A stretch of 64,000 bases of DNA from an uncultured virus (IMG/VR IMGVR_UViG_3300037067_011710) (lineage: Duplodnaviria; Heunggongvirae; Uroviricota; Caudoviricetes), in IMG/VR virus record IMGVR_UViG_3300037067_011710. One strand, 5' to 3'. The notes beneath the pieces were generated by a model. It did not search any database and was not told the origin of the DNA. It worked only from the letters and a program-made list of their open reading frames with translations. This document shows, piece by piece, positions 20,070-33,010 of the stretch. The position numbers were made by a program, and so were the translations under genes. Every line of letters begins with the position of its first letter. Positions within the stretch are counted from its first letter, which is position 1.

Positions 20070-20115
20070 TGTTGTTTTAATTTGATATTCATTTTTCTAA
20101 CTCTACTTTTTTATT

Positions 20116-20340: not shown

Positions 20341-21092
20341 ACCCTCTCATTACATTTCTGACAGCAAAACTTCTCAATTTGGTGCAATTCCCATGCAATC
20401 TGCCGGTCAACGTTATTTATCTTGTTAAAAATCGCTCGATATTCTTGCGTATTAACTATCCCCAGCCATCGTTCGGCCCGGTCCCGCGGTATCCTGGCAC
20501 GAAGCCTTATTTTGGCTGCATCAGCGTCGGTCATACCCCTGATTGCTCCGGCGTGGATACCAAAATGCCTTCTCACAAGGGAGTCCCTTGCTGGCAACTG
20601 CATACCTGATTCGGTTATTATCTTGGCGAGAATGTATTCATCTTCTCCCACTGCTTTCCCGATTTCTCCCCGGCGTAACGCCCAATAATACTTCTCTCTG
20701 GCCTCTTTGGTGCGCTTAAACCATGATACGTGCCCGAAGTGCAGGCCGGTCACCGGTCGCCCACCCTTGGCGTTGGAATAGCATTGACCGGTCTGCTGCA
20801 TGCTTTGCAGGTGATACTCCATGAGAGTAGGTTCACTGCGTAGAATAAAGAGATCCACGTCACCGATATAGAAATACTGAAATCCTTCCCGGTAATACTC
20901 GACTGGTGGCTCCATGACATATCTCATGACTGCCCCATAGTACGGTCCCCATCCGTGGCTTTGTGGCGGTCCCCAAGTAGTAAACACCATCGGTCGATAC
21001 TCCGGATACTCATGGTGAATACAAAAGCGCCACAGGTCGGAGAACGCTTGATATCGACCTGTGGCGAACGTGTAGACGAAAAGCTTGTTCAT
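20337..21092 (-). CDS. Glycosyltransferase-like protein
   Basis: YFYIGDVDLFI DxD motif; TGLHF; DEYIL. Confidence 0.55.
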   Translation of the reverse strand: MNKLFVYTFATGRYQAFSDLWRFCIHHEYPEYRPMVFTTWGPPQSHGWGPYYGAVMRYVMEPPVEYYREGFQYFYIGDVDLFILRSEPTLMEYHLQSMQQTGQCYSNAKGGRPVTGLHFGHVSWFKRTKEAREKYYWALRRGEIGKAVGEDEYILAKIITESGMQLPARDSLVRRHFGIHAGAIRGMTDADAAKIRLRARIPRDRAERWLGIVNTQEYRAIFNKINNVDRQIAWELHQIEKFCCQKCNERV

Positions 21093-21601
21093 GCAACCCT
21101 TCCAAAATCACCATGCAACATGCGACTTGCTTCAGCATATGCTTCAGCGGCTTTCTCACGATTATTAAAATATCCAAGAAATTTTAATTTTCTTTTTAAA
21201 TAAATTTGTGCACGCCATTTTTTATTTTGTTTATACCAGTATACACCCTTGAACCCAGATGTGTTATTTTGATGAATTTTCTGATTATGTTGATTTTGAG
21301 AAGCAGTAGCAAATCGTAAGTTTAATCTTCTATTATTCAATCCATTTCTGTCACGATGATCAACTTCAACATCGAAAGGGGCATTTGTAATAAATCGATG
21401 CATGGAAATTGTGTGTCGTTTTCCATTCTCATCACTTCTGGAACAACAACAAGCATACACGGTGTTCTCTGCCGGTACAGCAAACCAATTACGTTTTTTA
21501 ATCAACGAAACATCCATCACATCAATAACCGCCTCATGTCCCCTCGTTAATGGAACATATGCAATATCTCCTTCAATGCGAATATGACGAATTTCGTTCA
21601 C
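21089..21601 (-). CDS. HNH endonuclease with AP2 domain
   Basis: VDHRDRNGLNNRRLNLR; NTSGFKGVYW...KWRAQI...LGYF. Confidence 0.9.
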   Translation of the reverse strand: MNEIRHIRIEGDIAYVPLTRGHEAVIDVMDVSLIKKRNWFAVPAENTVYACCCSRSDENGKRHTISMHRFITNAPFDVEVDHRDRNGLNNRRLNLRFATASQNQHNQKIHQNNTSGFKGVYWYKQNKKWRAQIYLKRKLKFLGYFNNREKAAEAYAEASRMLHGDFGRVA

Positions 21602-21619
21602 AATAAATTGTTTTTTATT

Positions 21620-21919
21620 TTATTCGGAAGGTTTAAAGGCATCACGATTTTCAACCATAATTATGTATTCCTCTTTTACGAATGCATATTGTATTCCATT
21701 TATAGTCTCCGTGAACCCGTCCTTTTGCGTTCCAACCCGGTCAAACCTTACAACATCATCCTGCTGAACCCATTGATTATCAACGCCAGCCAATGAAACA
21801 ACTCCGCGAAATGGAGTTCGGCTGTCTTTAGCACTGTCGGGAATAATTATTTTACCAGTAGTCGATGTTTCTGCACTCTCATCTCTTCGAATAGCGTTCC
21901 ATTTACCTGGACAGAACAT
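21620..21919 (-). CDS. groES: GroES-like co-chaperonin
   Basis: TTGKIIIPDSAK...GVV...G...DVVRF...INGIQYAFVKEEYII. Confidence 0.75.
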   Translation of the reverse strand: MFCPGKWNAIRRDESAETSTTGKIIIPDSAKDSRTPFRGVVSLAGVDNQWVQQDDVVRFDRVGTQKDGFTETINGIQYAFVKEEYIIMVENRDAFKPSE

Positions 21920-22193
21920 GCAAATCCTCCTTTTTTATGTATTTCAAATCGGATGCCTCAAAATTATCTCTTCCGCATCCAAGACATTTCTTTACCGGCT
22001 TACTACTGACCAACAAGACATGGATTGATGCTCCACATTCACATTGCGTCTGATAATCAATGTTTCGTATCCCGTTTATACGACGAATCAAATACTTGCG
22101 CTGATCGTCATTCAGTGTCCTTACCGTTAATTCCTTTTCCAGTTCTTGGCGTGTACTGTTCGTCATCCCATCGATCCAAGCCTGCCTGTTCAT
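21903..22193 (-). CDS. Hypothetical zinc-ribbon protein
   Basis: CECG...CLGC. Confidence 0.55.
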   Translation of the reverse strand: MNRQAWIDGMTNSTRQELEKELTVRTLNDDQRKYLIRRINGIRNIDYQTQCECGASIHVLLVSSKPVKKCLGCGRDNFEASDLKYIKKEDLHVLSR

Positions 22194-22443
22194 GAAGTAT
22201 TCCTTCCCCTATTACCTTATAAATTTCCTCTTTTACTTTGTTATCCACCGCCGCAATCTCTGCGTTCGCTATTTCGGTGAGTTGTTCGCAGAGTTTAACC
22301 ACATCAATCACGTTTTTTAAAGTTCTCTGATCCCGCGGTGCATCCTGCATAAATGCATTGGCTATCAGCTTGATAACGTCAAAATCAATATGAAACTCTG
22401 TTTTTGAGTTCAACCCGACCACAGTGATGATGCTGGTTTTCAA
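22108..22443 (-). CDS. Hypothetical protein
   Basis: 111-aa ORF in operon. Confidence 0.55.
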   Translation of the reverse strand: MKTSIITVVGLNSKTEFHIDFDVIKLIANAFMQDAPRDQRTLKNVIDVVKLCEQLTEIANAEIAAVDNKVKEEIYKVIGEGILHEQAGLDRWDDEQYTPRTGKGINGKDTE

Positions 22444-22982
22444 TTCTTCCCCGGCTCCTTCTGGCGTTCGAAAACCAATTTATCTTCTTCCCTATGAAAT
22501 CCACGATTCAGCAAGAATTTACGCCCCTCCTCGGTACTGTCATCCCAACTGGTTTCAAACCATTCCACTCGGTTATCCTGAAAAGCGCATATTAATAACC
22601 GGTCCATAATGCCTTGCTTACGGTACTTCGGTTTGGTGTGCATGTCCCGGATCGATATGTATATGCGCGGTCTCGGCTTCGACAACGGGGTATCCCTTAC
22701 CTCCAAAACCTTTCCGTTATCGGTAATCGGTCGCACCCATAACTCTAATGTGGCTATGGGCTTATCATTTTTAAATTCCTGCCATAGATAAATTTGAGCC
22801 GGTACGTGTACGCTGCGTATACCATCGGGATCAAGTGGATCACGCGGCTTGATACCATGGCATTTGGGACATACCACTCGCATTTTCTTTGCGTTGAGGA
22901 TGTCCACCTTGATCACATATCCGGTATCCTTGCACTCTTCGCAGTTAAACGTCATCCCGTCTCCTTGTCTTCGGTCGATCAT
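22440..22982 (-). CDS. GNAT-family acetyltransferase with N-terminal Zn finger
   Basis: CEEC..CPKC; IRDMHTKPKYRKQGIMDRLL; FLLNRGF. Confidence 0.75.
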   Translation of the reverse strand: MIDRRQGDGMTFNCEECKDTGYVIKVDILNAKKMRVVCPKCHGIKPRDPLDPDGIRSVHVPAQIYLWQEFKNDKPIATLELWVRPITDNGKVLEVRDTPLSKPRPRIYISIRDMHTKPKYRKQGIMDRLLICAFQDNRVEWFETSWDDSTEEGRKFLLNRGFHREEDKLVFERQKEPGKN

Positions 22983-23169
22983 ACTCGTATGCGAGATTTA
23001 CGGCGTGATTTATCACATCACAATTGTTGACCTGCAAGCAGTCATCAACATGAATTTCATGCATCAGTTTTCTCTCGAAATAGGCAAGCGCTTTTCGATT
23101 TTTTTCTATCACCGAATACACAATATGCTTTGTCTGAGAAATAGGTGTTTTTTTCTGTCCTCTGGGCAT
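22945..23169 (-). CDS. Hypothetical protein
   Basis: 74-aa ORF. Confidence 0.5.
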   Translation of the reverse strand: MPRGQKKTPISQTKHIVYSVIEKNRKALAYFERKLMHEIHVDDCLQVNNCDVINHAVNLAYEYDRPKTRRRDDV

Positions 23170-23199: not shown

Positions 23200-25239
23200 T
23201 CATAATAAATTTTCGTATTCTGATACCTTTTTTACGGTATCTTGCTGATTACCTATCAACTTCTCCCTAATCTGCATTTTTTTGCGAGAATACGGGACAA
23301 TAAACATCCCCTGATCCGACTTTCGCGTCTCCTCTTTTATATGAGCCTCGATCATCATCAGTGATCTTACCAGTGGATAACCTTGAGGTATCTTTTTATT
23401 CTCATAGCACATCCGGCGCAACTGCACATCAGTCTCAACACAGTCAGAGTGCAAGAGAAGTATGTTGTCGGCAAACATCTTGTTTACCCGAAACACTGAG
23501 GAATGCTCATCATACATAGCCCCCTCAAAAATTCGTATGCCGCATTTCTGCAATTCCTTCTTTATGTTCGACTTTCCCTTCTTTGCCATGGCTTCGTTGC
23601 AAAATATTTTCCTTACTGTGACAAAATGTTCCTGCGATTCCAGTTGAACAATTGCTTTCTCCCTGATTTCCTCTGCCAACAACCGCGGAATCGGATACGG
23701 CTGAAAAATTTCGTTATAGACCTTCAGCTTACGTTTGGCATGAGACCATAAATAGCATCCACCATACACGCCCCCGGTTTCTTCCAACCACAGAACGATG
23801 TATACGCTGACATTTTGAGGTTGAATCTTATCAAACTCGGTTTTCTCTTTATTAAAACTGGAAACATGAACCAGCGGATTGTAATATTCAATAATTGGTT
23901 TCGGGCCTACCAACTTTTTAAACAATCCTGATATAGCATCAGCCCTGTCTTTTTTCCCATATGGGAATCTGGCACATTGAGATAGTGTAGGTTTATTCCA
24001 CGACCCCCGCAAAAATTTAACCCGTCCAAATTCTGCCCATGCTGCCCATGGCCTAAACCTCTCTTCCTTCTGCTCTTTAACTGGATCAGCCTTTGCACTA
24101 AAGCCCTTGAATATCTGAAGAAGATATTCTGACCCCCATTTTCCTGTAGCCTTTGATTCTTCCCATTCTATTTCTACATCCCGTCCGTCTGTCTCTGCAG
24201 TCTGGCGCATTATGTTTTCAGCTTGCCCTGGGGTTTTCTGGAAAGCCTCTATGTCGGTTACATAGAATATCCCATCATATATCCCTCCTTTAGCTCCGGC
24301 CGTTTCACACGGATCATTTTTCTTTTCCTCATCCTTTTCAGTTTCTGCAAGATCCCAATATCGAGATTGTTTCAATTCTGGTGGAATACTATCGACAATC
24401 TCTATCCATGAAGGATCAAATAAATTTCCAGCTTCAGTAATAAGCCAGTTTCCTTTTCCTATTCGTTCCCTAGTTACCCGGTCAGTTCCCATTACCTTTG
24501 CTTTATATTCTTCCCGGTTGGGCATCAGTTCGTTGGTATCAAGAGGAGCATCGATATAGGTTACGCTTGTCGGTGGTCTTCTATCCTCATCTCTTGCATC
24601 AGGAGATACCCATTCTATTTCATCGGTATTCCTGTCCCTTAAAAAATATCGTAGTTTTCCGCTTCTTTCGGGTATAGCATATCCTGTTTCGGGGTCCCAC
24701 CACCATTGAAAAAACTCCGCACACCAGGTATCAGCATCAGCGTTTCCTGTACAAAATGTAAATGGTTTTATTCTACATTCACCATAATTTCTATTCCTGG
24801 TTTGTAAATAAAAAAACTGACTTTTAGTAAACTGTGGAAGTTCATCAAATACTTCACATGTCCAAGCCAATCCTTGGTGATGAAATTTATCCGATTCATT
24901 ATTTAAATGTCCTATTTTTATATAAGCATTTGAAGGAAACGTCCATTCGGTTTTTCCCCTTACACCGTACCCATTGATTGCGGGATAAATATCTTGAGTA
25001 ATATCCCACAACCCACCCCCACCAACAATATCGTTATATTGTCTCCTAAAAATTACTGCGGTATAATCTTTGATATGAGCGTATCGACAAGCTGCAAGAG
25101 TAGAAACAACACTTTTCCCTCCCCCTCCTGGTCCTCCCATAAATGTAATATCGGCAGATGAAAGCAGTGCTTGGGTCTGCGGTCCGGGTTGTGGTCCAAT
25201 TATAGGCCTTCCATCTCCGGAATATCCTACAGGTTTCAA
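23200..25239 (-). CDS. terL: Terminase large subunit
   Basis: PQPGPQT Q-motif, GGPGGGGKS Walker A, VFDELPQF Walker B, RYWDLAET nuclease motif. Confidence 0.92.
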   Translation of the reverse strand: MKPVGYSGDGRPIIGPQPGPQTQALLSSADITFMGGPGGGGKSVVSTLAACRYAHIKDYTAVIFRRQYNDIVGGGGLWDITQDIYPAINGYGVRGKTEWTFPSNAYIKIGHLNNESDKFHHQGLAWTCEVFDELPQFTKSQFFYLQTRNRNYGECRIKPFTFCTGNADADTWCAEFFQWWWDPETGYAIPERSGKLRYFLRDRNTDEIEWVSPDARDEDRRPPTSVTYIDAPLDTNELMPNREEYKAKVMGTDRVTRERIGKGNWLITEAGNLFDPSWIEIVDSIPPELKQSRYWDLAETEKDEEKKNDPCETAGAKGGIYDGIFYVTDIEAFQKTPGQAENIMRQTAETDGRDVEIEWEESKATGKWGSEYLLQIFKGFSAKADPVKEQKEERFRPWAAWAEFGRVKFLRGSWNKPTLSQCARFPYGKKDRADAISGLFKKLVGPKPIIEYYNPLVHVSSFNKEKTEFDKIQPQNVSVYIVLWLEETGGVYGGCYLWSHAKRKLKVYNEIFQPYPIPRLLAEEIREKAIVQLESQEHFVTVRKIFCNEAMAKKGKSNIKKELQKCGIRIFEGAMYDEHSSVFRVNKMFADNILLLHSDCVETDVQLRRMCYENKKIPQGYPLVRSLMMIEAHIKEETRKSDQGMFIVPYSRKKMQIREKLIGNQQDTVKKVSEYENLL

Positions 25240-25838
25240 TCTTGATTCCTGCCATTATCAGGTATGCATAAAAGTGGAATAATAACAGTATTACCTCCTC
25301 CACTCCCACCCTCGGTAATCTTATGATGTTCTGCCAGCAATCGTATCATGGCTTCCTTTGACCACAACTCGTATTCGTACACGTTCTCTATCAGCTTATT
25401 GGTATTTCCATCCTCATCTTTTCCGCCAATGTCAGTAACCCGCTGAGTGTGCTTTATTTTTTTAATCGCCCGACGCCCTGGTCCCATTTCAAAAATATTC
25501 TTCAGAGCAATCCCGCCACCTTCATCTTTTACAAATAAATTGGCAGGATCAGAAAAGGCTATCAATGCTGCCTCTTCCAGAACATTATCAGCAGTTTTAT
25601 TATATCTTTTTAATGCAACATCGACTTTTAGCGCTAAAAAATCTTTTGCCTTTTGAGTTTTTAACAGGTTGTATCCACTACGTTGAGCATTGGATGGACG
25701 ATAACCAGCATCTATAAAAGCCTTTTTTATATCATTACCATTAGAAATATATAAACAAAGAGCTTTTTCTTCTTTAACAGAAAGATTATCTTTTTTTTCA
25801 AATCTATTTACTGCGATTTTTTTCATACCTGACCTCAT
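25236..25838 (-). CDS. terS: Terminase small subunit
   Basis: AFIDAGY, ADNVLEEAALIAFSD, KEAMIRLLAEH; directly upstream of terL. Likely start is 25826 (GAGG SD). Confidence 0.85.
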   Translation of the reverse strand: MRSGMKKIAVNRFEKKDNLSVKEEKALCLYISNGNDIKKAFIDAGYRPSNAQRSGYNLLKTQKAKDFLALKVDVALKRYNKTADNVLEEAALIAFSDPANLFVKDEGGGIALKNIFEMGPGRRAIKKIKHTQRVTDIGGKDEDGNTNKLIENVYEYELWSKEAMIRLLAEHHKITEGGSGGGNTVIIPLLCIPDNGRNQD

Positions 25839-25904
25839 AACGTACTATGCATGCTGACGTTTTGCTTCAAAATGTGCGGAGCGAACAGCATGCGACTGTT
25901 GTAC
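25835..25904 (-). repeat. attC-like site 1
   Basis: TCATAAC..GCATGCTG...CAGCATGC..GTTGTAC. Confidence 0.75.
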
Positions 25905-26050
25905 GAAGTTCGCCCCGCTTCCTTAGTGTTCCCGTGGCGGCATTCCGCGCACAGGACGTGCGCAATCTTAAAAGCAATGGCCTGCTCCGCAGTGCCCACC
26001 GCGAATAGTATTTGTGGTAGTTATGATCCATCTCACGATTTTAGTAAACA

Positions 26051-26908
26051 TTACACCCATCCTTTCGATAAGGTTCCGTTTGCATATACAACCCCGTACA
26101 TATTTCTTGCCGGAGCAAAAATTTTATATAACCCTTTTATCCCGTCCATAAACGATGCTGATAAAGTTTTTTCACACATAAAGCATGATCGCTTCAAAAG
26201 TAGTTTAGCTTTAACGCCGGGAATTATGTTTTTTAATTCAACAAAAGACTGGCACCCACCGTAAAATGGTGATGGCAATTTAATGTCAAATGTGTTTTCG
26301 AAAGAAACGAAGCAATCTTTGCCGTGTTGAATTTCGGATAATTTTATTTCATCAAAACCCATTCCGTCATAATGACGAATGCAGTCCGAAATATCGGAAC
26401 GAGTATACAAATATGGTTTTACTATGTTTAAATTTATCCGCACTTTTTCTTTGGGTAACGAAGCATAAAAAGACTGCCGATCATATTTAGATTTGGTTTT
26501 TCTTATTTCGTCTGCTATCTTTTCATCGTGAGACTGTACTGATAAATTTATTCCGTCGATCAAGGAAATCAATTCTAAAAACAACGCCCTGTTGTCAAAG
26601 CATTTTTTAGGCACCGCAGTTGTTACAAACAATTTCAACTTAGTTTTGTTTTTTAATTCCTTGATGCACGAAACAAGTTCTTCAAGAAATAGGCATGGCT
26701 CCCCTCCAAGAAAAAGAACATCGTCGTATCCGTTGCAATGTTCGACTATTGTTTTTACAATTTCCGGTACATTAGGAACTGCTGCACCAACCCCGTGGAA
26801 TCGAGTGTCAATACAGTGGGCACATTTATTATCACAAGAACTTGTAAAGTGTACATCGAATGAATTATACAGGCCATCACAACAGTTCTTTTTGAAAGGA
26901 TTTTGCAT
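26051..26908 (-). CDS. Radical SAM protein (cassette 1)
   Basis: CDNKCAHC, LGGEPCL. Start reassigned to MQNPFKK because the ORF-track N-terminus lies in the neighbouring att site. Confidence 0.85.
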   Translation of the reverse strand: MQNPFKKNCCDGLYNSFDVHFTSSCDNKCAHCIDTRFHGVGAAVPNVPEIVKTIVEHCNGYDDVLFLGGEPCLFLEELVSCIKELKNKTKLKLFVTTAVPKKCFDNRALFLELISLIDGINLSVQSHDEKIADEIRKTKSKYDRQSFYASLPKEKVRINLNIVKPYLYTRSDISDCIRHYDGMGFDEIKLSEIQHGKDCFVSFENTFDIKLPSPFYGGCQSFVELKNIIPGVKAKLLLKRSCFMCEKTLSASFMDGIKGLYKIFAPARNMYGVVYANGTLSKGWV

Positions 26909-26987
26909 TTTCTTTTCCTCTTCGGCGCACGACGCGCCGTCTTTTTTCTGCCGCCACCTACAATTCAGATTTTGCGGGGCGAATTTT

Positions 26988-27124
26988 GTACAACAGACTC
27001 GCAAATGTGTGCTGGCATCCGGGGGCGTAACCGTACAGCCGATCGGTTCTGTAAGCACCTTCATACAAGGTACACCCTATGCATAAAAGAGACCCCGGAT
27101 GCTTGAACACTTTGCGTGTTAGCG
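26988..27124 (-). repeat. attC-like site 2
   Basis: AAC-AGACT-CGCAAA-T-GTGT..GCATCCGGGG...CCCCGGATGC..ACAC-TTTGCG-T-GTT. Confidence 0.8.
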
Positions 27125-27425
27125 GCTGTTAACCGCGATTCCACAACTCACCTTTCCGGCGCGTGTTTCTGCAACGTACTTTCGAACGGCAGACCGGTAA
27201 CACTGAAAACAAAGCTCCCTGAACTTGGTAAACACAGGCTTCCACGATGGCCTCGGAACACCCTTTGAATCCTTATCGACACACGGTACGATATGGCTGA
27301 ACTCTGAAAAATCACGGATCTGTGTAGAATGGCTGCCGCAACAATCGCAAATTACCTGCTCCATTTTATCTCCTATGTAAGCGCCGGAACTTTAATGCTC
27401 CAGAGCGGTTTATTGACGCTAACGT
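26991..27425. repeat. 435-bp direct repeat, copy 1 (cassette 2)
   Basis: Identical by eye to 28524-28958 (offset 1533); the ORF translations are identical. Confidence 0.95.
27119..27364 (-). CDS. Small Cys-rich protein (cassette 2)
   Basis: CDCC...LCFQC; AGGAG SD. Confidence 0.7.
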   Translation of the reverse strand: MEQVICDCCGSHSTQIRDFSEFSHIVPCVDKDSKGVPRPSWKPVFTKFRELCFQCYRSAVRKYVAETRAGKVSCGIAVNSR

Positions 27426-27590
27426 GCTCAGGCACCAGCCCGAAGTTGACCGACAATCCAATCGTAACAAAACCTCACGATATCAAACTCCTCTTCCGTG
27501 GCACGATGGTTAGTATCTTTAATACTCTGCTGATCATATGCAAATTCCAAATTCTTAACGTCGGGCAATTTTGGGCTGCCTGTGTTATCG
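27417..27590 (-). repeat. attC-like site 3
   Basis: AAC-GTGCT-CAGGC..AGCCCGAAGTTG...CAATTTTGGGCT-GCCTG-T-GTT. Confidence 0.75.
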
Positions 27591-27751
27591 GTCTGTTGCT
27601 CGGCGCTACCCTTGCTCTGCCGGGCATGCTGCAAACCGGCAACAATGTCTGATAACGCAATAACGGCATTTTCAATATTATCGCCCGAACAGCACTCCAT
27701 TAACTAATCGCGAATACTGCCTGCATCTTGTTCAAATGTTGATATTGACAT
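27428..27751 (-). pseudogene. Cassette 3 ORF with in-frame TAG at codon 16
   Basis: AAGGAG SD then MSISTFEQDAGSIRD*LMECCSGD..., continuing in frame into the 90-aa ORF. Confidence 0.55.
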
Positions 27752-27803
27752 AAATGCTCCTTAAATCCACGCCCGGCCTTTAACATGGCCGCCGAGCAAT
27801 TGC

Positions 27804-27931
27804 CGATAACGGCTTGCGGTACGCATGAAGTAAAGTACGACCGCATACCGCTTACCTTTATTTTATGCTACCGCTGTTAGTTTCCGTTTTGCGGCTTTCC
27901 AATTCGGCATGTTGGCCTTGCGTTGTTGGGC
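27804..27931 (-). repeat. attC-like site 4 (composite)
   Basis: AAC-GGCTT-GCGGTA-C-GCATGAAGTAAAG...CTTTATTTTATGC-TACCGC-T-GTT (27876), plus a second core GTTGGGC at 27925. Confidence 0.75.
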
Positions 27932-28118
27932 GTATGTGCCCGTTTTGTACCATAATACCCTGCGGTGGCCTTCTTTGTTCGTAGCGAATAGCCGCCAGCA
28001 TAGCACACTCACGAATCTCTGAGGGTGTAAGCTGCAACGCGTGAATATGATGCTCCAAAGAATCCACCAAAGCCTTAATCAGGGGGTCGTGCATATAACG
28101 ATACTCGATTGACTGCAT
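27858..28118 (-). CDS. Hypothetical protein (cassette 4)
   Basis: RYMHDPLIKALVDSLE...LTPSEIRECAMLA; start set at MQSIEY inside the cassette. Confidence 0.65.
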   Translation of the reverse strand: MQSIEYRYMHDPLIKALVDSLEHHIHALQLTPSEIRECAMLAAIRYEQRRPPQGIMVQNGHIRPTTQGQHAELESRKTETNSGSIK

Positions 28119-28160
28119 TGGCCACCGCCTATAATAAATTGTTTTCAAAACGGGCATTTC

Positions 28161-28298
28161 GCCCAACCTTTACGCAATGGTAGCTGCTCCGCGCCACTTG
28201 CACGGAACTTTAGGCCACCAACAATTTACACCATTACAAAACGGGCTGTCGCTTGCTTTACAGTATCTGCGCGGAGTTGATACCTTGCGTTGTTGGAT
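28161..28298 (-). repeat. attC-like site 5
   Basis: AAC-CTTT-ACGCAA-T-GGTA..CTCCGCGC...GCGCGGAG..TACC-TTGCGT-T-GTT. Confidence 0.8.
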
Positions 28299-28493
28299 GC
28301 TCGTAACCTTTGCCACCTTAATATTGGCGCGGTTTATTCTACGCCAAATGGTACAAAAGCTTGCACAACAAGCGTATCCCGAATAAAATGAATTATCATC
28401 GCAAATAGGCAATAATTTTGCACTATGTGGAGACTTTTGAAATTTACAATGCTCCGAGAACTGTTTAAAACTTACTTGTCTATATCCGCGCAT
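28170..28493 (-). CDS. Cys-rich hypothetical protein (cassette 5)
   Basis: Start MRGYRQ inside the cassette; the ORF-track N-terminus derives from att site 6. Confidence 0.55.
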   Translation of the reverse strand: MRGYRQVSFKQFSEHCKFQKSPHSAKLLPICDDNSFYSGYACCASFCTIWRRINRANIKVAKVTSIQQRKVSTPRRYCKASDSPFCNGVNCWWPKVPCKWRGAATIA

Positions 28494-28523
28494 TATAACT
28501 CCAAAGCAAAGGTTATTGCATTC

Positions 28524-28958
28524 CAACAGACTCGCAAATGTGTGCTGGCATCCGGGGGCGTAACCGTACAGCCGATCGGTTCTGTAAGCACCTTCATACA
28601 AGGTACACCCTATGCATAAAAGAGACCCCGGATGCTTGAACACTTTGCGTGTTAGCGGCTGTTAACCGCGATTCCACAACTCACCTTTCCGGCGCGTGTT
28701 TCTGCAACGTACTTTCGAACGGCAGACCGGTAACACTGAAAACAAAGCTCCCTGAACTTGGTAAACACAGGCTTCCACGATGGCCTCGGAACACCCTTTG
28801 AATCCTTATCGACACACGGTACGATATGGCTGAACTCTGAAAAATCACGGATCTGTGTAGAATGGCTGCCGCAACAATCGCAAATTACCTGCTCCATTTT
28901 ATCTCCTATGTAAGCGCCGGAACTTTAATGCTCCAGAGCGGTTTATTGACGCTAACGT
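28524..28958. repeat. 435-bp direct repeat, copy 2 (cassette 6, includes attC-like site 6 at 28521-28657)
   Basis: Identical by eye to 26991-27425. Confidence 0.95.
28652..28897 (-). CDS. Small Cys-rich protein (cassette 6, identical to cassette 2)
   Basis: Same 81-aa translation as 27119-27364. Confidence 0.7.
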   Translation of the reverse strand: MEQVICDCCGSHSTQIRDFSEFSHIVPCVDKDSKGVPRPSWKPVFTKFRELCFQCYRSAVRKYVAETRAGKVSCGIAVNSR

Positions 28959-29082
28959 CAAGCGAATATGTGAAGTGGCGGCACAGCCCCTCCCGACCGC
29001 GTTAAGCTCTTGTCGGGGCCAACACCACATGTTAACAGCACATAAGTCTGCTTGCCGCCATTTTATATATTCGCTGTTGTGT
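28950..29082 (-). repeat. attC-like site 7
   Basis: AAC-GTCAA-GCGAATATGTGAAGTGGCGGCA...TGCCGCCATTTTATATATTCGC-T-GTT. Confidence 0.8.
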
Positions 29083-29221
29083 GAACGTAAAGAAGGCTTC
29101 CATAGTGTAAGCGCGTGCTCGGTCGTCTTGACTAACTACCATTACGAATACACACTGGACGGTAAGCCCCAGGAACCAAACTAATAACGCGCCTACAACC
29201 ATAAAAGCCTTCTTTATTTCC

Positions 29222-29300
29222 ACACAACGTTTACGCAGTGCGAAGTCGGCGCTTCGCCGATTTGTGCGGAGTCTTCGGAGCCACACTGCGTTTGTTAAGC
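29222..29300 (-). repeat. attC-like site 8
   Basis: AAC-GTTT-ACGCAGTG...CACTGCGT-TT-GTT. Confidence 0.7.
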
Positions 29301-29464
29301 GAAGTTTTGGCGGCTACCGCTGTCTTCAGAGGTTTGCAAACCTCTGAGCCACACCATACTGTTTCTTCGTTTTCAAGTTTAACCTTGTAGGGTAAATCAC
29401 AATCTTCATCGTCAACAGCAACAATGACGCCACTTAATACAACTTTTGTTCCTATCTCAAGCAT
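29231..29464 (-). CDS. Small SH3-like beta protein (cassette 8)
   Basis: GGAGG SD then MLEIGTKVVLSGVIVAVD...PYKVKL. Confidence 0.6.
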   Translation of the reverse strand: MLEIGTKVVLSGVIVAVDDEDCDLPYKVKLENEETVWCGSEVCKPLKTAVAAKTSLNKRSVAPKTPHKSAKRRLRTA

Positions 29465-29500
29465 GTAAACCTCCTCCAATTTAAGAGCCGACAAAATTTT

Positions 29501-29632
29501 GTTTAACGTGTGCCGTGTTATGCTCGTGCCGACCTATACGATGGGCACTCAACTCCATCATTCTCTAAGTCACAACCCTCTGCACGTAAAGCACATGATG
29601 GGCAAAGGCATGGCATAACGCGGCTGTTGTGC
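29501..29632 (-). repeat. attC-like site 9
   Basis: AAC-GTGT-GCCGTGTTATGC...GCATAACGCGGC-T-GTT. Confidence 0.8.
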
Positions 29633-29745
29633 GAAGGTTTTAACTCCTCCGCAGATTTAGCGCATTTGTGGTCAACTGCTAATTCACGAGTCGGAAACTT
29701 CGCCTCGCACTTATCGCACTGATAAAAAGTAAGTATTGTTCTCAA
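29518..29745 (-). CDS. Zn-finger-like small protein (cassette 9)
   Basis: AGGAGG SD, TTG start; YQCDKCEAKF...HKC. Confidence 0.6.
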   Translation of the reverse strand: MRTILTFYQCDKCEAKFPTRELAVDHKCAKSAEELKPSHNSRVMPCLCPSCALRAEGCDLENDGVECPSYRSARA

Positions 29746-29778
29746 ATGCGCCTCCTAAATAAAAGCGTTAAAACTTTT

Positions 29779-29918
29779 GTACAACGGGTTGCTAAACGGG
29801 TTTAGTTTGCCCGTTGGTTGACACAGGGTTTATCGAAACATTTAAGCGTCGTCATCTCGGAAAAGCACTTCTCTCCGTGTTTGAAAAAAGGGCAAATTGA
29901 ACCCTTTGGCTGTTGCAC
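29779..29918 (-). repeat. attC-like site 10
   Basis: AAC-GGGTT-GCTAAA-C-GGGTTTAGTTTGCCC...GGGCAAATTGAACCC-TTTGGC-T-GTT. Confidence 0.85.
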
Positions 29919-30098
29919 GTCTGTGGCCGGTGACTCCACCTGTTGCCGGGCGACAACCTCAGCCCCGATAATAGTATAGTGCGGATACTCAGCGATTAGG
30001 CGCTCCACCTCCGGAAGTTGTACGTCTACCGTTTTAAGCGAAAACTCACTTTGATCGAATCCGCACTGGTGGCACTCTCGTAAAATGATTCTTAACAT
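29802..30098 (-). CDS. Hypothetical protein (cassette 10)
   Basis: 98-aa ORF filling the cassette. Confidence 0.6.
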   Translation of the reverse strand: MLRIILRECHQCGFDQSEFSLKTVDVQLPEVERLIAEYPHYTIIGAEVVARQQVESPATDVQQPKGSICPFFKHGEKCFSEMTTLKCFDKPCVNQRAN

Positions 30099-30151
30099 AT
30101 AAGCTCTTTCGTTTTAGCCCGGCTTACAATCGTGATCTCACCGGGCATTGC

Positions 30152-30240
30152 GTGCAACGGTTTGCCGCACAGCCGAAGCTGGCGACTACAATTTATCTTC
30201 CACAGCCGACTTCGCCAGTTTTGGCTTGCGGCTGTTGGCT
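30152..30240 (-). repeat. attC-like site 11
   Basis: AAC-GGTTT-GCCGCA-C-AGCCGAAGCTGGCGA...TCGCCAGTTTTGGCT-TGCGGC-T-GTT. Confidence 0.85.
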
Positions 30241-30917
30241 GTTGTAAATCGCGCTTCCGAAGTGTTCTCCGGGGCGCTCCTCGCGCACACGATGTGCGCT
30301 CTTAATTGTTTTCCAATGTACTCGGTGTACGCAGGTGGGATTGCCTCAGAAAGCTCTTCCCGAGTAACCCACCAATCTACGCCCATTGCCAATGCTCCAT
30401 CAGCCCGCTTATAGTTATGCCCTGCGCATGTGATGAAATCGTAGTTCTCTAAAGTGTGATAGCACCCCTTCGATGGGGCCATACGACCCCAGTGGTTACA
30501 GGAGCCGGGAAGCATGATCAGGAAATTCGATTCGAATTTACGATGTCGAAGCACCCGCAAATTAAACATTGTTCCGCACAAAGTTATAGCGTTGATTAGT
30601 GGGGCATCGGGGACGTTTTCTATAACGAAAGGGACTCCGGATTGCTTTAGTCTTTCGCGAACAGGAGCCACCAAATCCGGGTAGTCAATTTCTGGATGCA
30701 GATACGCAAGTCTGGAATATTTTTGACATGGCGGGCTGGCGTGTATTGCATCAAAACCTGAAATAGGATACGTTGTTGCGTCTGCCTGGTGAAACTCGAA
30801 CGGGTAATGCGGCTGCGGGTTAATATCCACCCCGACCACGTCGAAGCCAGCGCGGCTATAGCCGACACTGCAACCGCCAGCCCCGCAGAACAAATCAAGT
30901 AATTTTGGTTTTCGCAT
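30186..30917 (-). CDS. DNA (cytosine-5)-methyltransferase, short phage type (cassette 11)
   Basis: LLDLFCGAGG, HASPPCQ, IENV, EAIPPAYTEYIG. Confidence 0.9.
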   Translation of the reverse strand: MRKPKLLDLFCGAGGCSVGYSRAGFDVVGVDINPQPHYPFEFHQADATTYPISGFDAIHASPPCQKYSRLAYLHPEIDYPDLVAPVRERLKQSGVPFVIENVPDAPLINAITLCGTMFNLRVLRHRKFESNFLIMLPGSCNHWGRMAPSKGCYHTLENYDFITCAGHNYKRADGALAMGVDWWVTREELSEAIPPAYTEYIGKQLRAHIVCARSAPENTSEARFTTANSRKPKLAKSAVEDKL

Positions 30918-30996
30918 TTTGTCTTTCGCGGCCCCGGACGGGCCGATTCTGTTTTGCGCCCCGGCTATAATAATTTGCCTTTGCGCGATTTATTGC

Positions 30997-31069
30997 AGCT
31001 AACGTGTTGCGGCATAGGTGACGTTCGGCTTTGCGAATGTGCGAAGCGAACACCTTGCCGCTGTTATAC
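30997..31069 (-). repeat. attC-like site 12
   Basis: AAC-GTGTT-GCGGCA-T-AGGT..GTTCG...CGAAC-ACCT-TGCCGC-T-GTT. Confidence 0.85.
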
Positions 31070-31093
31070 GGCGTTTGAAAAGTTTACCACCAG

Positions 31094-31675
31094 TCATAAT
31101 GCGCCCCACTGTTCCGCCATGGCACGCGCGATTCCGCTGTACGTGATGGAACGAATGAGATGCCGGTTGGGACTCGGCGGCAACTTGTGAATACGACCAA
31201 CTCTTCCGGAGACAATATCGGTTGCCCGGAGAGCCGGAAGCCCACTTAACCACAAACAAGTTGCTTTAGTTTCACCATGACCGAACTGCCACGGATGTAC
31301 TATTTGCGTATACCGTTTACCAATGATCTCAAGTGCCTTTCCGTGAGGAATGGGATTTTCGACGCAGATGCTTTTTGCGTTGGCATTAAGGCACTTCTCA
31401 AAAAAATGGCAAGCCTGCACCATTTTGCACCATCGACCCGGTTGAGTATAAAGCCAACGCACACCGCTGTTGCAGAGATAAGTACAATCCGGGTGTGCAA
31501 TAACTAAATCCCATTCCTCGCATAATAACTCGGAGACATCCCCATGGATATGCGAACCCCGCTCCGAACTGGATGGAAGTAAATCGCAAGATACGGCATG
31601 GTGACCGTACTCAAGAAAGGAATCGCGCACCGTTCCGCTGAACTCACACGCTACGAGAATTTTTTTAGGGCGCAT
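31094..31675 (-). CDS. DNA cytosine methyltransferase-like protein, minimal phage family (cassette 12)
   Basis: ILVACEFSGTVRD, WDLVIAHPDCTYL, ENP, PWQFGH..KATCLWL, RSITYSGIARAMAEQWG. Confidence 0.8.
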   Translation of the reverse strand: MRPKKILVACEFSGTVRDSFLEYGHHAVSCDLLPSSSERGSHIHGDVSELLCEEWDLVIAHPDCTYLCNSGVRWLYTQPGRWCKMVQACHFFEKCLNANAKSICVENPIPHGKALEIIGKRYTQIVHPWQFGHGETKATCLWLSGLPALRATDIVSGRVGRIHKLPPSPNRHLIRSITYSGIARAMAEQWGAL

Positions 31676-31707
31676 TTATAATCTCCAGAAACTTTTCAAA
31701 TGTTGTA

Positions 31708-32061
31708 TAACTACTTCAAAGCCGTAATGGCCCTGCGTATCTCGTTGATCCTGTTAATATCTCTTTCTTTAAGAAAATCCATTTTCTTTCCAATCTTTCT
31801 TAAAAACGAAGCTACTATCGCATGTACGTTATCCNNNNNNNNNNNNNNNNNNNNNNNNNNNNNNNNNNNNNNNNNNNNNNNNNNNNNNNNNNNNNNNNNN
31901 NNNNNNNNNNNNNNNNNNNNNNNNNNNNNNNNNNTAACTACTTCAAAGCCGTAATGGCCCTGCGTATCTCGTTGATCCTGTTAATATCTCTTTCTTTAAG
32001 AAAATCCATTTTCTTTCCAATCTTTCTTAAAAACGAAGCTACTATCGCATGTACGTTATCC
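31708..32061. other. Scaffold gap (100 N) flanked by a 127-bp duplicated overlap
   Basis: 31708-31834 equals 31935-32061. Confidence 0.9.
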
Positions 32062-32183
32062 GAAACAGTTCCTCCAGCAAACCCATAAAGAATATTTATC
32101 TCTGCCTCATATAAATAAACTTTGTGCTGTATTCGGACACGATTTCTAGCCATTTTAATGGCAGTGTGATCAGTTGCAATCAT
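31938..32183 (-). CDS. Hypothetical protein whose TAG stop overlaps the array entry GTT
   Basis: 81-aa ORF; TTGAAG-TAG-TTA. Confidence 0.65.
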   Translation of the reverse strand: MIATDHTAIKMARNRVRIQHKVYLYEAEINILYGFAGGTVSDNVHAIVASFLRKIGKKMDFLKERDINRINEIRRAITALK

Positions 32184-33010
32184 TTTAGAGGATCAGCCTG
32201 TCGTTGCGTTATCCGAAATGCTTCTATCATCGCCCGATATTTCGCCCGGTCTTTGTCACTAGACTTGGGAAGCGAAAAATATTTGTCCGCAATTTTTATT
32301 TGCGCTTCAACCTCTTTGGATGTCATTGGCGACTGCTTGCCATCGTTGAAATCAACGTCAGTGTTCTTCACACGCTCACCACGAGCAATCCGGTCGATAA
32401 CCTCAGTTTGTACACCCCTACGTGCTCTGGCCGTCTTAAGTGCAGCCGTTGGGCTTATAGCTCCTTCTTTTACGGCCTGCCTGATATCGGCAGGAGCTTC
32501 GAGCAGTTTGATAAGGTCCCTGATGTGCTGGTCACTACACCCGAGTCTCTTTGCAATATCTGATTTTTTCATTCCACCATCAACCAATTCTTTTATGGCT
32601 GATGCCTTATCGTCTGCACAAAGAGGCTCTGTGGTGGTACCATAGGAAAGCTGTTTCAGTATCAGATCAGCTCCAGAAAGCTTTTTTCCGCAAACTTTCT
32701 CTTCGAGTTCACAGTACAGCTCTGTTTTTTCCCATGATAAATTGGCAATTGCATAATTTGCAGCCCTGTGACGACGTTCTCCGTCAGTGTACTCGAACCA
32801 TTCCTCATCGTCCGACAGATATCCCCTTACAGGATCGCGCTGCCCCTCAAGGACTAGGCTATTCGCCAGTACCGCTATCGACTCTTGCGGGAATTGAGTC
32901 CGTATGTTCCGTTCCCCTCGGCGTATCTTGGATATCTGTATCCAATACCCGTTTCCGTCCCGGCGCACCCATGTCTTGTCCCTGATCCCCATCGTTTTTA
33001 TCCTTTCCAA
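32180..33010 (-). CDS. ParB-like nuclease/HTH protein
   Basis: GQRDPV...TDGERRHRA; HTH KKSDIAKRLGCSDQHI. Confidence 0.8.
   Translation of the reverse strand: MERIKTMGIRDKTWVRRDGNGYWIQISKIRRGERNIRTQFPQESIAVLANSLVLEGQRDPVRGYLSDDEEWFEYTDGERRHRAANYAIANLSWEKTELYCELEEKVCGKKLSGADLILKQLSYGTTTEPLCADDKASAIKELVDGGMKKSDIAKRLGCSDQHIRDLIKLLEAPADIRQAVKEGAISPTAALKTARARRGVQTEVIDRIARGERVKNTDVDFNDGKQSPMTSKEVEAQIKIADKYFSLPKSSDKDRAKYRAMIEAFRITQRQADPLK

What the first reader, a model, noticed from the sequence alone, without database searches (positions are those of the whole stretch)
25898..31711. Each cassette has its own extended terminal inverted repeats (7-bp core, 4-5-nt loop, 6-12-bp box)
Seen: complementarity between a cassette's two ends continues beyond the core. 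Examples: GTTGTAC-AAAAT-TCGCCCCGC vs GTTGTAC-GAAGT-TCGCCCCGC (cassette 1); GTTGTGT-GGAAA-TAAAGAAGGCTT vs GTTGTGT-GAACG-TAAAGAAGGCTT (7); GTTAGCT-GCAA-TAAATCGCGC vs GTTGGCT-GTTG-TAAATCGCGC (11); GTTATAC-AACA-TTTGAAAAGTTT vs GTTATAC-GGCG-TTTGAAAAGTTT (12). Some form of this occurs in all 12 cassettes. Inference: a box-spacer-box recombinase site forms by pairing the two cassette ends with the gene looped out, the reverse of classical attC where both boxes lie within the hairpin. This suggests a different excision mechanism.
Basis: partly seen in the sequence, partly recalled or inferred. Interest (0 to 1): 0.85.

Follow-up and report, generated by a model that had tools for sequence, protein, structure and literature searches.

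The report
Split long-stem phage gene cassettes
Each swappable gene cassette in this phage begins and ends with matching sequences that are the two halves of an unusually long recombination hairpin, a variant of the integron gene-capture system that related phages run with a simpler enzyme.

Summary
The window is a phage. Bases 25841-31711, read on the minus strand, hold 12 single-gene cassettes (11 unique) between a ParB-like gene and the small terminase.

Beyond the 7-nt core, each cassette's ends match its own other end far better than other cassettes' ends: exact run 9.2 vs 3.5 nt, 0 of 100,000 permutations. A third helix follows at a fixed +35 nt in 36 of 38 cassettes. The spacer holds a conserved mismatch.

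It is not a reversed attC. An attC-like inner hairpin still lies between R'' and R'. A duplicated cassette and a 708-nt presence/absence variant both end at G|TT. So the ends are the base of one long hairpin, split on integration.

A classical Vibrio integron array shows no such extension; a scan of phage TJE1, which carries a CALIN, found none. The window has no recombinase. A syntenic relative has a 272-aa Xer-like tyrosine recombinase, without the IntI insertion, abutting its array.

I rate it a new variant of the integron kind. Four searches found no description. Earlier notes of this scan report similar split stems on other DNA.

The parts
25841..31711 (-). Whole cassette array: 12 cassettes, 11 unique, all genes on the minus strand
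   Evidence: Lies between the stop codon of the 81-aa ORF and the start of the small terminase gene.
31003..31710 (-). Cassette c12 (708 nt), DNA methyltransferase 31675-31094
   Evidence: R' 31711-31705; H2 31700-31689; H3 31676-31668; H3' 31106-31098; H2' 31085-31074; R'' 31069-31063; inner hairpin 31062-31004. phrog_757 hit, 2.9e-55. Absent from part of the population of run X1.
30158..31002 (-). Cassette c11 (845 nt), C5 DNA methyltransferase 30917-30186
   Evidence: R' 31003-30997; H2 30992-30983; H3 30964-30956; H3' 30277-30269; H2' 30254-30245; R'' 30240-30234; inner hairpin 30233-30159. PF00145 and phrog_363 hits. Run X3 has the same ends around a different 752-nt body.
29785..30157 (-). 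Cassette c10 (373 nt), 98-aa ORF of no known family
   Evidence: R' 30158-30152; H2 30144-30138; H3 30123-30117; H3' 29951-29945; H2' 29933-29927; R'' 29918-29912; inner hairpin 29911-29786.
29507..29784 (-). Cassette c9 (278 nt), small ORF that reads into its hairpin
   Evidence: R' 29785-29779; H2 29774-29767; H3 29751-29743; H3' 29668-29660; H2' 29644-29637; R'' 29632-29626 (one core mismatch); inner hairpin 29625-29508.
29228..29506 (-). Cassette c8 (279 nt), small ORF
   Evidence: R' 29507-29501; H2 about 29496-29487 (10 nt with one mismatch); H3 29473-29467; H3' 29335-29329; R'' 29300-29294 (one core mismatch); inner hairpin 29293-29229.
28956..29227 (-). Cassette c7 (272 nt), very small ORF
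   Evidence: R' 29228-29222; H2 29216-29205; H3 29192-29187; H3' 29116-29111; H2' 29099-29088; R'' 29082-29076; inner hairpin 29075-28957.
28527..28955 (-). Cassette c6 (429 nt), 81-aa ORF; identical copy of c2
   Evidence: R' 28956-28950; H2 28943-28938; H3 28922-28914; H3' 28695-28687; H2' 28669-28664; R'' 28657-28651; inner hairpin 28650-28528. The unitig 28524-28958 has double depth in X1.
28167..28526 (-). Cassette c5 (360 nt), about 109-aa ORF
   Evidence: R' 28527-28521; H2 28515-28506; H3 28491-28486; H3' 28332-28327; H2' 28313-28304; R'' 28298-28292 (one core mismatch); inner hairpin 28291-28168.
27810..28166 (-). Cassette c4 (357 nt), about 102-aa ORF; its inner hairpin is broken or composite
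   Evidence: R' 28167-28161; H2 28156-28146; H3 28128-28120; H3' 27970-27962; H2' 27947-27937; R'' 27931-27925. The hairpin departs from the intact form seen in run X3 at 27903.
27423..27809 (-). Cassette c3a (387 nt) with a long (160-nt) inner hairpin at 27583-27424
   Evidence: R' 27810-27804; H2 27799-27790; H3 27777-27771; H3' 27625-27619; H2' 27605-27596; R'' 27590-27584. The stem arms CAGGCAGCCC and GGGCTGGTGCCTG were read.
26994..27422 (-). Cassette c2 (429 nt), duplicate of c6
   Evidence: R' 27423-27417; H2 27410-27405; H3 27389-27381; H3' 27162-27154; H2' 27136-27131; R'' 27124-27118; inner hairpin 27117-26995. Identity with c6 starts and stops at the G|TT cores (100%).
25841..26993 (-). 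Cassette c1 (1153 nt), radical SAM gene 26911-26051 plus a remnant of a methyltransferase 3' end
   Evidence: R' 26994-26988; H2 26983-26974; H3 26957-26949; H3' 25942-25934; H2' 25918-25909; R'' 25904-25898; inner hairpin 25897-25842. PF04055 hit. The remnant was read.
31711..32183 (-). 81-aa ORF upstream of the array. The G of its stop codon TAG is the G of the first core (attI-like junction)
   Evidence: No likeness to the recombinase family. It sits where the syntenic relative L054 has its recombinase. The coordinates include the scaffold artefact below.
31836..31934 (.). N-run. The flanks 31708-31835 and 31935-32062 are the same about 128 nt, so two contigs overlap here, starting at the array boundary
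   Evidence: The loose end in run X1 at 31834 continues as 32063 onward. G001 ends at this point.
32180..33010 (-). ParB/KorB-like gene, conserved neighbour of the array in the relative L054
   Evidence: PF17762, PF08535. Synteny.
25236..25838 (-). Small terminase subunit, the downstream boundary of the array
   Evidence: PF03592.

Best explanation
The array is an integron-like store of mobile single-gene cassettes in a phage. Each cassette's terminal inverted repeats are the two halves of the lower part of one long, multi-helix recombination hairpin.

In the excised circular cassette, or wherever the single strand folds back on itself, the element reads as follows from the outside inwards:
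- H3: 6-10 bp, starting about 35 nt from the core.
- An internal loop of about 13-18 nt with conserved motifs.
- A small loop with conserved A.A and C.A mismatches.
- H1: the 7-nt AAC/GTT core, often plus 2 bp.
- A 1-nt versus 4-nt spacer.
- An attC-like inner hairpin.

Strand exchange takes place at G|TT inside this stem. On integration, H1, H2 and H3 are therefore split between the two ends of the cassette, while the inner hairpin stays at its 3' end.

Shown: the pairing, its geometry, the G|TT unit of gain and loss, and the absence of the extension in classical arrays.

Inferred:
- The enzyme is a compact Xer/XerA-like tyrosine recombinase without the IntI-specific insertion. It abuts such arrays in related phages but is missing from this one, so this array would depend on an enzyme supplied in trans.
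- The site is recognised as a folded single strand.
- The long outer stem makes the circular form the better substrate. It may also make up for the missing IntI domain.
For: 1. Self versus non-self complementarity of the box: 9.2 vs 3.5 nt, 10 of 11 rows, 0 of 100,000 permutations.

2. Third helix: 36 of 38 unique cassettes (window plus L026, L027, L040, L042, L054) have an exact run of 6 nt or more starting at +33 to +42 on both ends. Self mean is 8.5 vs 4.6, and 0 of 20,000 permutations reached it.

3. Conserved asymmetry of the spacer. Position 4 beyond the core is a Watson-Crick pair in 1 of 38 cassettes (C:A 27, A:A 8). Position 3 pairs in 12 of 38. Position 5 is A:T in 25. Position 2 covaries (T:A 16, G:C 6). 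A follows R'' in 38 of 38.

4. Box sequences differ between cassettes while pairing is kept. Window c7 and the first cassette of L042 share core and spacer but differ at three consecutive H2 positions on both arms in a compensating way.

5. Unit of exchange. The duplicate c2=c6 is bounded by G|TT on both sides and includes the downstream hairpin. Run X1 holds a contig that skips exactly 708 nt, 30999->31708, at depth 11.3, beside a c12-bearing unitig at depth 6.8. Run X3 has c12 next to an intact c4 hairpin.

6. Folding of in-silico circular junctions with DNA parameters. Own 5' end gives mean -42.6 kcal/mol, against -33.4 for the native array junction and -33.7 for non-self partners. Self is lowest in 8 of 11. 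H1+H2+H3 are all present in the minimum-energy fold of 8 of 11. Both strands fold.

7. Controls.
- Fifteen cassettes of a classical V. anguillarum chromosomal integron have 7/7 cores and 1-4 more contiguous bp, but no box (self 2.7 vs non-self 3.1) and no H3 (4.2 vs 4.7).
- The TJE1 phage genome, reported to hold a CALIN, gives only background hits.
- The other fetched loci, about 77 of them encoding other Xer-like recombinases, give only background.
- The three-tier detector gives one hit in the 58 kb of the window outside the array.

8. Recombinase. L042/L052, L053 and L054 encode recombinases that are 100, 54 and 49% identical to P0001. In each, the first cassette core starts 0-6 nt after the stop codon; that is 3 of 3 loci with downstream DNA. 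L054 is syntenic with the window: DnaB, SNF2 at 60% amino-acid identity, a 150-aa gene and a ParB-like gene, then the recombinase where the window has an unrelated 81-aa ORF.

9. The recombinase aligns end to end with XerA (4a8e). Against IntI4 (2a3v) it has 38 residues where the integrase has 88.
Against: - No recombinase of this family is in the window: tblastn, a profile against 760 six-frame ORFs, Pfam on the ORFs of 120 aa or more. Nor is one in G001. Activity here is inferred from relatives and from one population variant.
- No circular junction, single-stranded intermediate or cleavage site was observed.
- Recombinase and array sit together in only 3 loci, and one of them has only 144 nt downstream.
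- In 3 of 11 cassettes (c11, c9, c8) the minimum-energy fold prefers partly different local pairings. Self was not the lowest-energy partner in 3 of 11.
- H3 is G+C-rich, so self is the unique best match in only 20 of 38 rows, and 16% of non-self pairs also reach 6 nt.
- The relatives' cassettes were picked by a detector that requires core plus box. They show nothing about how universal the box is; only the H3 and spacer statistics are independent of that choice. I also dropped 5 rows as nested or spurious, by judgement.
- Two pairs of homologous cassette bodies at about 80% identity have unrelated inner hairpins on both sides. The simple model, in which the hairpin travels with the upstream gene, does not predict this.
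- A role of the same pairing in RNA is not excluded.
- One earlier scan note with a like reading is marked 'part of it fell'.
Confidence: 0.7

Rival explanations
1. The working site is formed in the array itself by pairing a cassette's two ends with the gene looped out: core, spacer and box would act as the R-box, spacer and L-box. Excision would go through this stem by a route unlike attC x attC.
For: The geometry of core, 4-nt partly unpaired spacer and box is as regular as an R box, UCS and L box. The body with its inverted repeats is the co-inherited unit in two homologous pairs whose inner hairpins differ on both sides. In a single strand of the array the ends can pair, at 150-1100 nt apart.
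Against: The duplicate and the 708-nt variant both run G|TT to G|TT and carry the downstream hairpin. Cutting both strands of the end stem would leave hairpin-hairpin joints without a core, and none was seen. An attC-like inner hairpin with its own conserved spacing is present at every junction.
Confidence: 0.12
2. The complementarity serves RNA. The 5' and 3' flanks of each gene would pair in the transcript to form a processing or stabilising stalk, as the flanks of 16S rRNA do for RNase III (recalled, from no call). Recombination would be incidental.
For: Pairing brackets each ORF. H3 sometimes includes the start codon (c12). The internal loop carries conserved motifs of unknown role.
Against: The pairing is anchored exactly on the AAC/GTT crossover core and is continuous with it. 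Rfam gave no match in the array. This model does not explain whole-cassette gain and loss at the core, nor a recombinase abutting the arrays.
Confidence: 0.08
3. Each cassette is a small transposon-like element with terminal inverted repeats, moved by a transposase.
For: Terminal inverted repeats of 20-45 nt flank each gene.
Against: No transposase was found among the ORFs scanned. There are no target-site duplications. All units lie head to tail in one orientation and are joined by hairpin linkers. The cores are AAC/GTT as in attC, and a tyrosine recombinase abuts the arrays in relatives.
Confidence: 0.03

Closest known systems
Classical integron gene cassettes and attC sites recombined by IntI (R''-L''...L'-R', folded bottom strand, crossover G|TTRRRY). 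Passages of PMC8946536 were read.
   Same: - Single-gene cassettes in one orientation.
- Imperfect hairpin sites bounded by xxxxAAC ... GTTxxxx.
- Exchange at G|TT.
- The 7-nt core at a cassette's start complements the inverse core before its own hairpin.
- An unpaired spacer and an extra base in the inner stem.
- Site sequences vary while structure is kept.
   Different: - The stem continues about 45 nt below the crossover as two more helices (H2, H3) at fixed distances, with conserved mismatch loops. A classical Vibrio array lacks this.
- The inner spacer is 1 vs 4 nt rather than about 5 vs 5.
- The extra base lies on the R'/L' arm (read by eye).
- The associated recombinase lacks the roughly 50-residue IntI insertion.
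- That recombinase is co-oriented with the cassettes and abuts them, rather than being divergent.
CALINs (clusters of attC sites lacking an integron-integrase) in phages: Qi et al. 2023, PMC9892861. Outline, section 3.4 and passages read.
   Same: A recombinase-less cassette array in a phage. The cassettes encode DNA methyltransferases. The authors report 17 CALINs in phages and 5 methyltransferase cassettes.
   Different: Their sites were found with attC models, and 5 of 6 were recombined by IntI1. Here the sites have the extended stem, and relatives carry a Xer-like enzyme. The genome of their phage TJE1 shows no three-tier cassette. Whether attC models detect the present sites could not be tested.
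Xer recombination of folded single-stranded phage DNA (CTX phage attP with XerCD). Only the abstract start of PMC3442271 was seen, in the listing; the rest is recalled.
   Same: A Xer-type enzyme without the IntI insertion acts on a hairpin folded from one strand and exchanges one pair of strands.
   Different: That system integrates a whole phage at dif through a compact dif-like site. Here there are arrays of gene cassettes with cassette-specific stems and an AAC/GTT core.
Archaeal XerA and archaeal integrons (best PDB match 4a8e; NF040815)
   Same: The recombinase is closest in sequence to XerA: 130 bits in NCBIfam, and colinear with 4a8e.
   Different: The score is below the family cut-off (130 vs 220 bits). 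The context is a phage cassette array, not chromosome dimer resolution.

Membership tests
Integron (IntI + attI + attC cassettes) | An integron integrase that carries the IntI-specific additional domain (I2 helix region) | tested here: not met
   The window has no tyrosine recombinase. The relatives' enzyme scores 125.5 bits against TIGR02249 (cut-off 265), in two stretches. Against 2a3v it has 38 residues where IntI4 has 88.
Integron (IntI + attI + attC cassettes) | Cassette-associated sites that are imperfect inverted repeats bounded by RYYYAAC ... GTTRRRY | tested here: met
   All 12 junctions have xxxxAAC, a hairpin, then GTTxxxx. Cores are mostly GTTRYNN.
Integron (IntI + attI + attC cassettes) | Exchange at G|TT, so that the unit is TTxxxx-gene-hairpin-G | tested here: met
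   Boundaries of the duplicate c2=c6. The 708-nt presence/absence variant of c12 in run X1.
Integron (IntI + attI + attC cassettes) | Sites detected by the curated attC models (IntegronFinder, HattCI) | not testable with these tools
   No attC model is held. Rfam gave no match in the array.
Integron (IntI + attI + attC cassettes) | intI divergent from the array, with attI and the Pc promoter between them | tested here: not met
   In L042, L053 and L054 the recombinase is co-oriented with the array and ends 0-6 nt before the first core. Sigma-70-like promoter matches are not enriched in the array: 11 found vs 8.1 +/- 3.3 expected.
CALIN (cluster of attC sites lacking an integrase) | Two or more attC sites with no integron integrase nearby | tested here: inconclusive
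   There are twelve attC-like sites and no recombinase in 64 kb. Whether they count as attC by the defining model could not be tested.
Xer/dif modules (pdif modules, IMEX) | A compact, roughly 28-bp dif-like site with two sequence-conserved 11-bp arms around a 6-bp centre | tested here: not met
   Junctions are 56-160-nt hairpins. The boxes differ in sequence between cassettes and only the pairing is kept. The site definition is recalled.
Transposon or MITE with terminal inverted repeats | A transposase and target-site duplications | tested here: not met
   No transposase family among the ORFs scanned. The units abut through hairpin linkers with no duplications.

The most novel reading that the evidence does not exclude
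This is a distinct phage-borne gene-capture system, parallel to integrons. A compact Xer/XerA-like tyrosine recombinase without the I2 region works on folded sites of about 200 nt built of four helices, with the crossover deep inside the stem.

Each cassette therefore carries about 45 nt of private, structured inverted repeat at each end, and only the free circle rebuilds the full site.

The inner hairpins may be exchangeable linkers, with crossovers at R'' as well as R', that is on either strand. New cassettes may arise by swapping cargo inside a pre-existing pair of ends, as the methyltransferase remnant in cassette 1 suggests.
Probability: 0.45. Interest if true: 0.85.

Novelty: new variant of a known kind. 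Interest (0 to 1): 0.72.

Why it matters
Integron integrases are held to have gained single-strand recombination through the I2 helix (abstract start of PMC7790495, seen only in the listing). Here, cassette arrays with attC-like cores travel with an enzyme that lacks that region, and the sites are much longer. If confirmed, hairpin-based gene capture would not be tied to IntI, and part of the work could be done by the DNA site rather than by the protein.

The arrays also show how phages of unrelated backbones share counter-defence genes such as methyltransferases as ready-made cassettes.

Two observations bear on the open question of how cassettes are born: the methyltransferase remnant inside cassette 1, and the variant in run X3 with the same ends around a different cargo.

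Tried and rejected
- Searches used a pattern with the wrong gap (16-21; the true gap is 15). The viral scan found nothing. The 21 genome-contig hits were chance matches such as uvrC-like genes. The corrected pattern was checked on the window before the metagenome scan.
- Small and large terminase as queries found only the window's own contig.
- The search of named phages found only mycobacteriophage methyltransferase genes, not arrays.
- Rfam gave no match. It cannot see a structure whose halves lie at opposite ends of a cassette.
- I first read the conserved 67-nt '3' module' of c1 and c11 as a structured non-coding element. It is better explained as the conserved 3' end of a methyltransferase gene, kept as a remnant in c1.
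- I first counted 'c3b' (27559-27424) as a 13th cassette. I now read it as the loop of a long inner hairpin.
- The 81-aa ORF is not a recombinase remnant.
- L127, from a record with the same leading number as the window's contig, is an unrelated integrase.
- The 5'-side loop motif as a sigma-70 -10 element: no predicted promoter lies there.
- Runs X3, X6 and X8 hold only small shares of the stretch. I use them only for the specific joints listed, not for habitat or host.

Full report
WHAT THE WINDOW IS. All long ORFs lie on the minus strand. They include a P22-like portal, large and small terminase, ParB-like, SNF2, DnaB, Erf, an exonuclease and NinB, so this is a phage. The window's own assembly is not held. 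A 35-kb viral record (G001) covers the part to the right of the N-run. Bases 25841-31711 lie between an 81-aa ORF that follows the ParB-like gene and the small terminase gene.

CHECK OF THE OBSERVATION. The four quoted examples are in the sequence as written. A blind inverted-repeat search lists cassette-end pairs among its 25 longest hits: I1, I3, I5, I12, I13, I18, I23, I24. I fixed the cores by reading the minus strand.
- For the 11 unique cassettes I compared the 25 nt beyond the core at each 5' end with the reverse complement of every 3' end.
- Own pairs share exact runs of 12, 10, 7, 8, 5, 12, 6, 10, 11, 10 and 10 nt (mean 9.2).
- The 110 non-self pairs average 3.5, with a maximum of 7.
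- Self is the unique best in 10 of 11 rows, and 0 of 100,000 permutations reach the observed sum.
The weak cases are c8 (one mismatch in a 10-nt box), c6/c2 (6 nt) and c10 (one indel).

ORIENTATION AND CROSSOVER.
- One cassette occurs twice (c6 at 28956-28527, c2 at 27423-26994). The copies are identical from G|TT to the next G|TT and include the hairpin downstream of the gene. The sequences on either side differ. The unit is therefore TTxxxx-gene-R''-hairpin-G on the minus strand, as in integrons.
- Public contigs laid on the array add a population variant. In run X1, a possible source of this DNA, one contig joins 30999 to 31708 and skips 708 nt with a 4-nt ambiguity, at depth 11.3. Cassette 12 is exactly 708 nt (31710-31003), and the unitig bearing it has depth 6.8, against 14-17 for its neighbours.
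- The duplicate's unitig has double depth (37).
- In run X3, cassette 12 follows an intact, short form of the c4 hairpin. The window's c4 hairpin departs from that form at 27903.
- Also in X3, a contig keeps both ends of c11 (30155-30303 and 30941-31005) around a body of 752 instead of 637 nt.
- The N-run (31836-31934) is flanked by the same roughly 128 nt (31708-31835 = 31935-32062). Two contigs overlap here, starting at the array boundary, as expected for an assembly-graph branch.

I collected 38 unique cassettes: 11 from the window, 12 from L026, 4 each from L027 and L040, 5 from L042 and 2 from L054. Five detector rows were dropped as nested or spurious, by judgement.
- Spacer. On the R' side the core is followed by n-n-A-A-T. 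On the R'' side it is preceded by A-C-n-n-C. Position 1 pairs in 21 of 38 cassettes and position 2 in 22 of 38, with covariation (T:A 16, G:C 6). Position 3 pairs in 12 (A:A 19) and position 4 in 1 (C:A 27, A:A 8). Position 5 is A:T in 25. The 'loop' is thus a small conserved mismatch next to an extended core.
- Third helix. A further complementary run starts at +33 to +42, mostly +35 to +37, on both ends. It is 6 nt or longer in 36 of 38 cassettes. Self mean is 8.5 vs 4.6, and 0 of 20,000 permutations reach it. H3 is G+C-rich, so self is the unique best in only 20 of 38 rows.
- Internal loop. Between H2 and H3 lie 13-18 nt with recurrent motifs: ACTnnGGWRG on the 3' side and TT(A/G)TAG on the 5' side (read). 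Their role is unknown.

THE INNER HAIRPIN IS STILL attC-LIKE. Every R'' is followed by A (38 of 38) and then a stem. Every R' is preceded by 4 nt, mostly NRAC. The stem has a CAAG-like box a few bases in. In several sites read by eye (c5, c6, c11, c12) there is a single extra base on the 3' arm. This matches the textbook picture of R and L boxes, unpaired spacer, extrahelical bases and a variable end (passages of PMC8946536), with different spacing. The outer helices are therefore an addition to the attC design, not its mirror image.

For the 11 unique window cassettes I joined by code 60 nt upstream of R'', the site up to G, and 60 nt of a 5' end, then folded with DNA parameters.
- With the cassette's own 5' end the mean energy is -42.6 kcal/mol. 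The native array junction gives -33.4 and other cassettes' ends give -33.7.
- Self is the lowest in 8 of 11.
- H1, H2 and H3 all appear in the minimum-energy fold of c12, c10, c7, c6, c5, c4, c3a and c1. c11, c9 and c8 partly choose local alternatives.
- The bottom strand folds slightly better (-45.6), which decides nothing.

CONTROLS.
- A classical chromosomal integron carried by Vibrio phage MK672802 (intI plus 15 cassettes) has 7/7 self-complementary cores and 1-4 further contiguous pairs. It has no box (self 2.7 vs non-self 3.1) and no H3 (4.2 vs 4.7).
- The genome of phage TJE1, for which Qi et al. report a CALIN whose sites IntI1 recombines, gives only background hits. I did not locate its attC sites myself.
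- The other fetched loci, about 77 of them encoding other Xer-like recombinases, give only background, and the window outside the array gives one three-tier hit in 58 kb.

RELATIVES AND THE ENZYME.
- A pattern from the shared 3' end of c1 and c11 found arrays in metagenome contigs.
- In L042 (the same contig as L051 and L052) a 268-aa tyrosine recombinase (PF00589, 94 bits) ends 6 nt before the first core.
- It has a family of 33 clusters at 43-100% identity, on contigs of up to 51 kb. The next relatives are at about 33% identity.
- Two further members on viral contigs (54% and 49% identical) are also followed at once by a cassette of the same design. That makes 3 of 3 loci with downstream DNA, one of them with only 144 nt.
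- NCBIfam scores are below every cut-off: XerA 130 of 220, integron integrase 125.5 of 265.
- The protein is colinear with XerA (4a8e). It lacks about 50 residues that IntI4 (2a3v) has between the matched blocks.
- L054 is a relative of the window's phage. DnaB, SNF2 (60% amino-acid identity), a 150-aa gene and the ParB-like gene are colinear. The recombinase then sits where the window has an unrelated 81-aa ORF.
- The window holds no such recombinase.
- L042 is a different phage backbone (PolA, DUF2800 nuclease, Enc34-type SSB). Its DNA matches to the window are confined to the c11-like cassette.

HOW IT MOST LIKELY WORKS. The complementarity of the ends follows from where the strands are exchanged. 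A circular cassette carries one long imperfect hairpin. The crossover at G|TT lies about 45 nt above its base, so integration leaves half of H1, H2 and H3 at each end. Because box sequences vary while pairing, spacing and two mismatches are kept, the site must be read as a folded structure, as attC is. The steps beyond this are inferred:
- The Xer-like enzyme is the recombinase.
- The extended R arm, with its conserved mismatch, is its recognition element.
- The full site exists only in the circle, which would favour capture over loss.
- The long stem stands in for the missing IntI region.

AN OBSERVATION THAT DOES NOT FIT. Two pairs of homologous bodies at about 80% identity (c1 with L046; L026 with L054) have unrelated inner hairpins on both sides. 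Exchange at R'' on the other strand, or recombination within conserved ends, could explain it. Two pairs are too few to decide.

RIVALS. An RNA stalk (0.08) does not explain the cores or the cassette variants. Transposon-like elements (0.03) lack any supporting feature.

COMPARISON WITH PRINT AND WITH THIS SCAN. Phage CALINs with methyltransferase cassettes are described (PMC9892861; section 3.4 and passages read). Four full-text searches listed no paper describing stems that extend beyond the R box, or a Xer-like enzyme with phage cassette arrays. The library lacks most subscription journals, and I read only the listings apart from the two papers named. Earlier notes of this scan describe split long stems on cassettes in other phages and bacteria, several beside Xer-like enzymes. 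They are unchecked AI notes, they came after my reading was formed, and one is marked 'part of it fell'. They agree with this report but are not independent support.

VERDICT. It is wrong in calling the site a reversed attC with a new excision route. I class it as a new variant of the integron kind.

Noticed in passing
window 25999-25905 (minus strand): Downstream of the radical SAM gene in cassette 1 lies an open frame reading ...AIAFKIAHVLCAEC.... It resembles the C-terminal ...IGKQLRAHIVCA... of the c11 methyltransferase. The last roughly 120 nt of c1 match the 3' ends of methyltransferase-type cassettes in L026, L045 and L050. This looks like cargo replaced inside an older cassette's ends.
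   Followed up: partly
window 31836-31934 and flanks: Scaffold gap. About 128 nt are duplicated on either side (31708-31835 = 31935-32062), so two contigs overlap, beginning at the first cassette core. The true sequence is probably continuous.
   Followed up: yes
window 27924-27811: The hairpin after cassette 4 is composite. Its first 22 nt match an intact short hairpin seen in run X3. Then come about 40 other nt, a second ...ACTAAC core and another hairpin. This may be the remnant of an empty or deleted cassette.
   Followed up: partly
window, loops between H2 and H3 of every cassette (e.g. 25933-25919 and 26973-26958): Conserved single-sided motifs, ACTnnGGWRG before the 3' box and TT(A/G)TAG before the 5' H3. 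They are not complementary to each other and are not predicted sigma-70 promoters. Function unknown.
   Followed up: partly
window 14450-23000: Between the portal and terminase genes lie two more radical SAM/SPASM genes, a LicD-like gene, glycosyltransferase-like genes and an HNH-AP2 endonuclease. This is an accessory block without the cassette design.
   Followed up: no
window 46271-54736: A 2821-aa ORF with no Pfam family at E <= 1e-4.
   Followed up: no
L053 about 7830-7840; window 31713-31711: In both, the G of the upstream gene's TAG stop codon is also the G of the first cassette core. The insertion point therefore overlaps the end of the upstream gene.
   Followed up: partly
L029, L041, L049: An unrelated repeated element in other metagenome contigs matched the search pattern by chance. 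L041 has long inverted repeats of its own.
   Followed up: no
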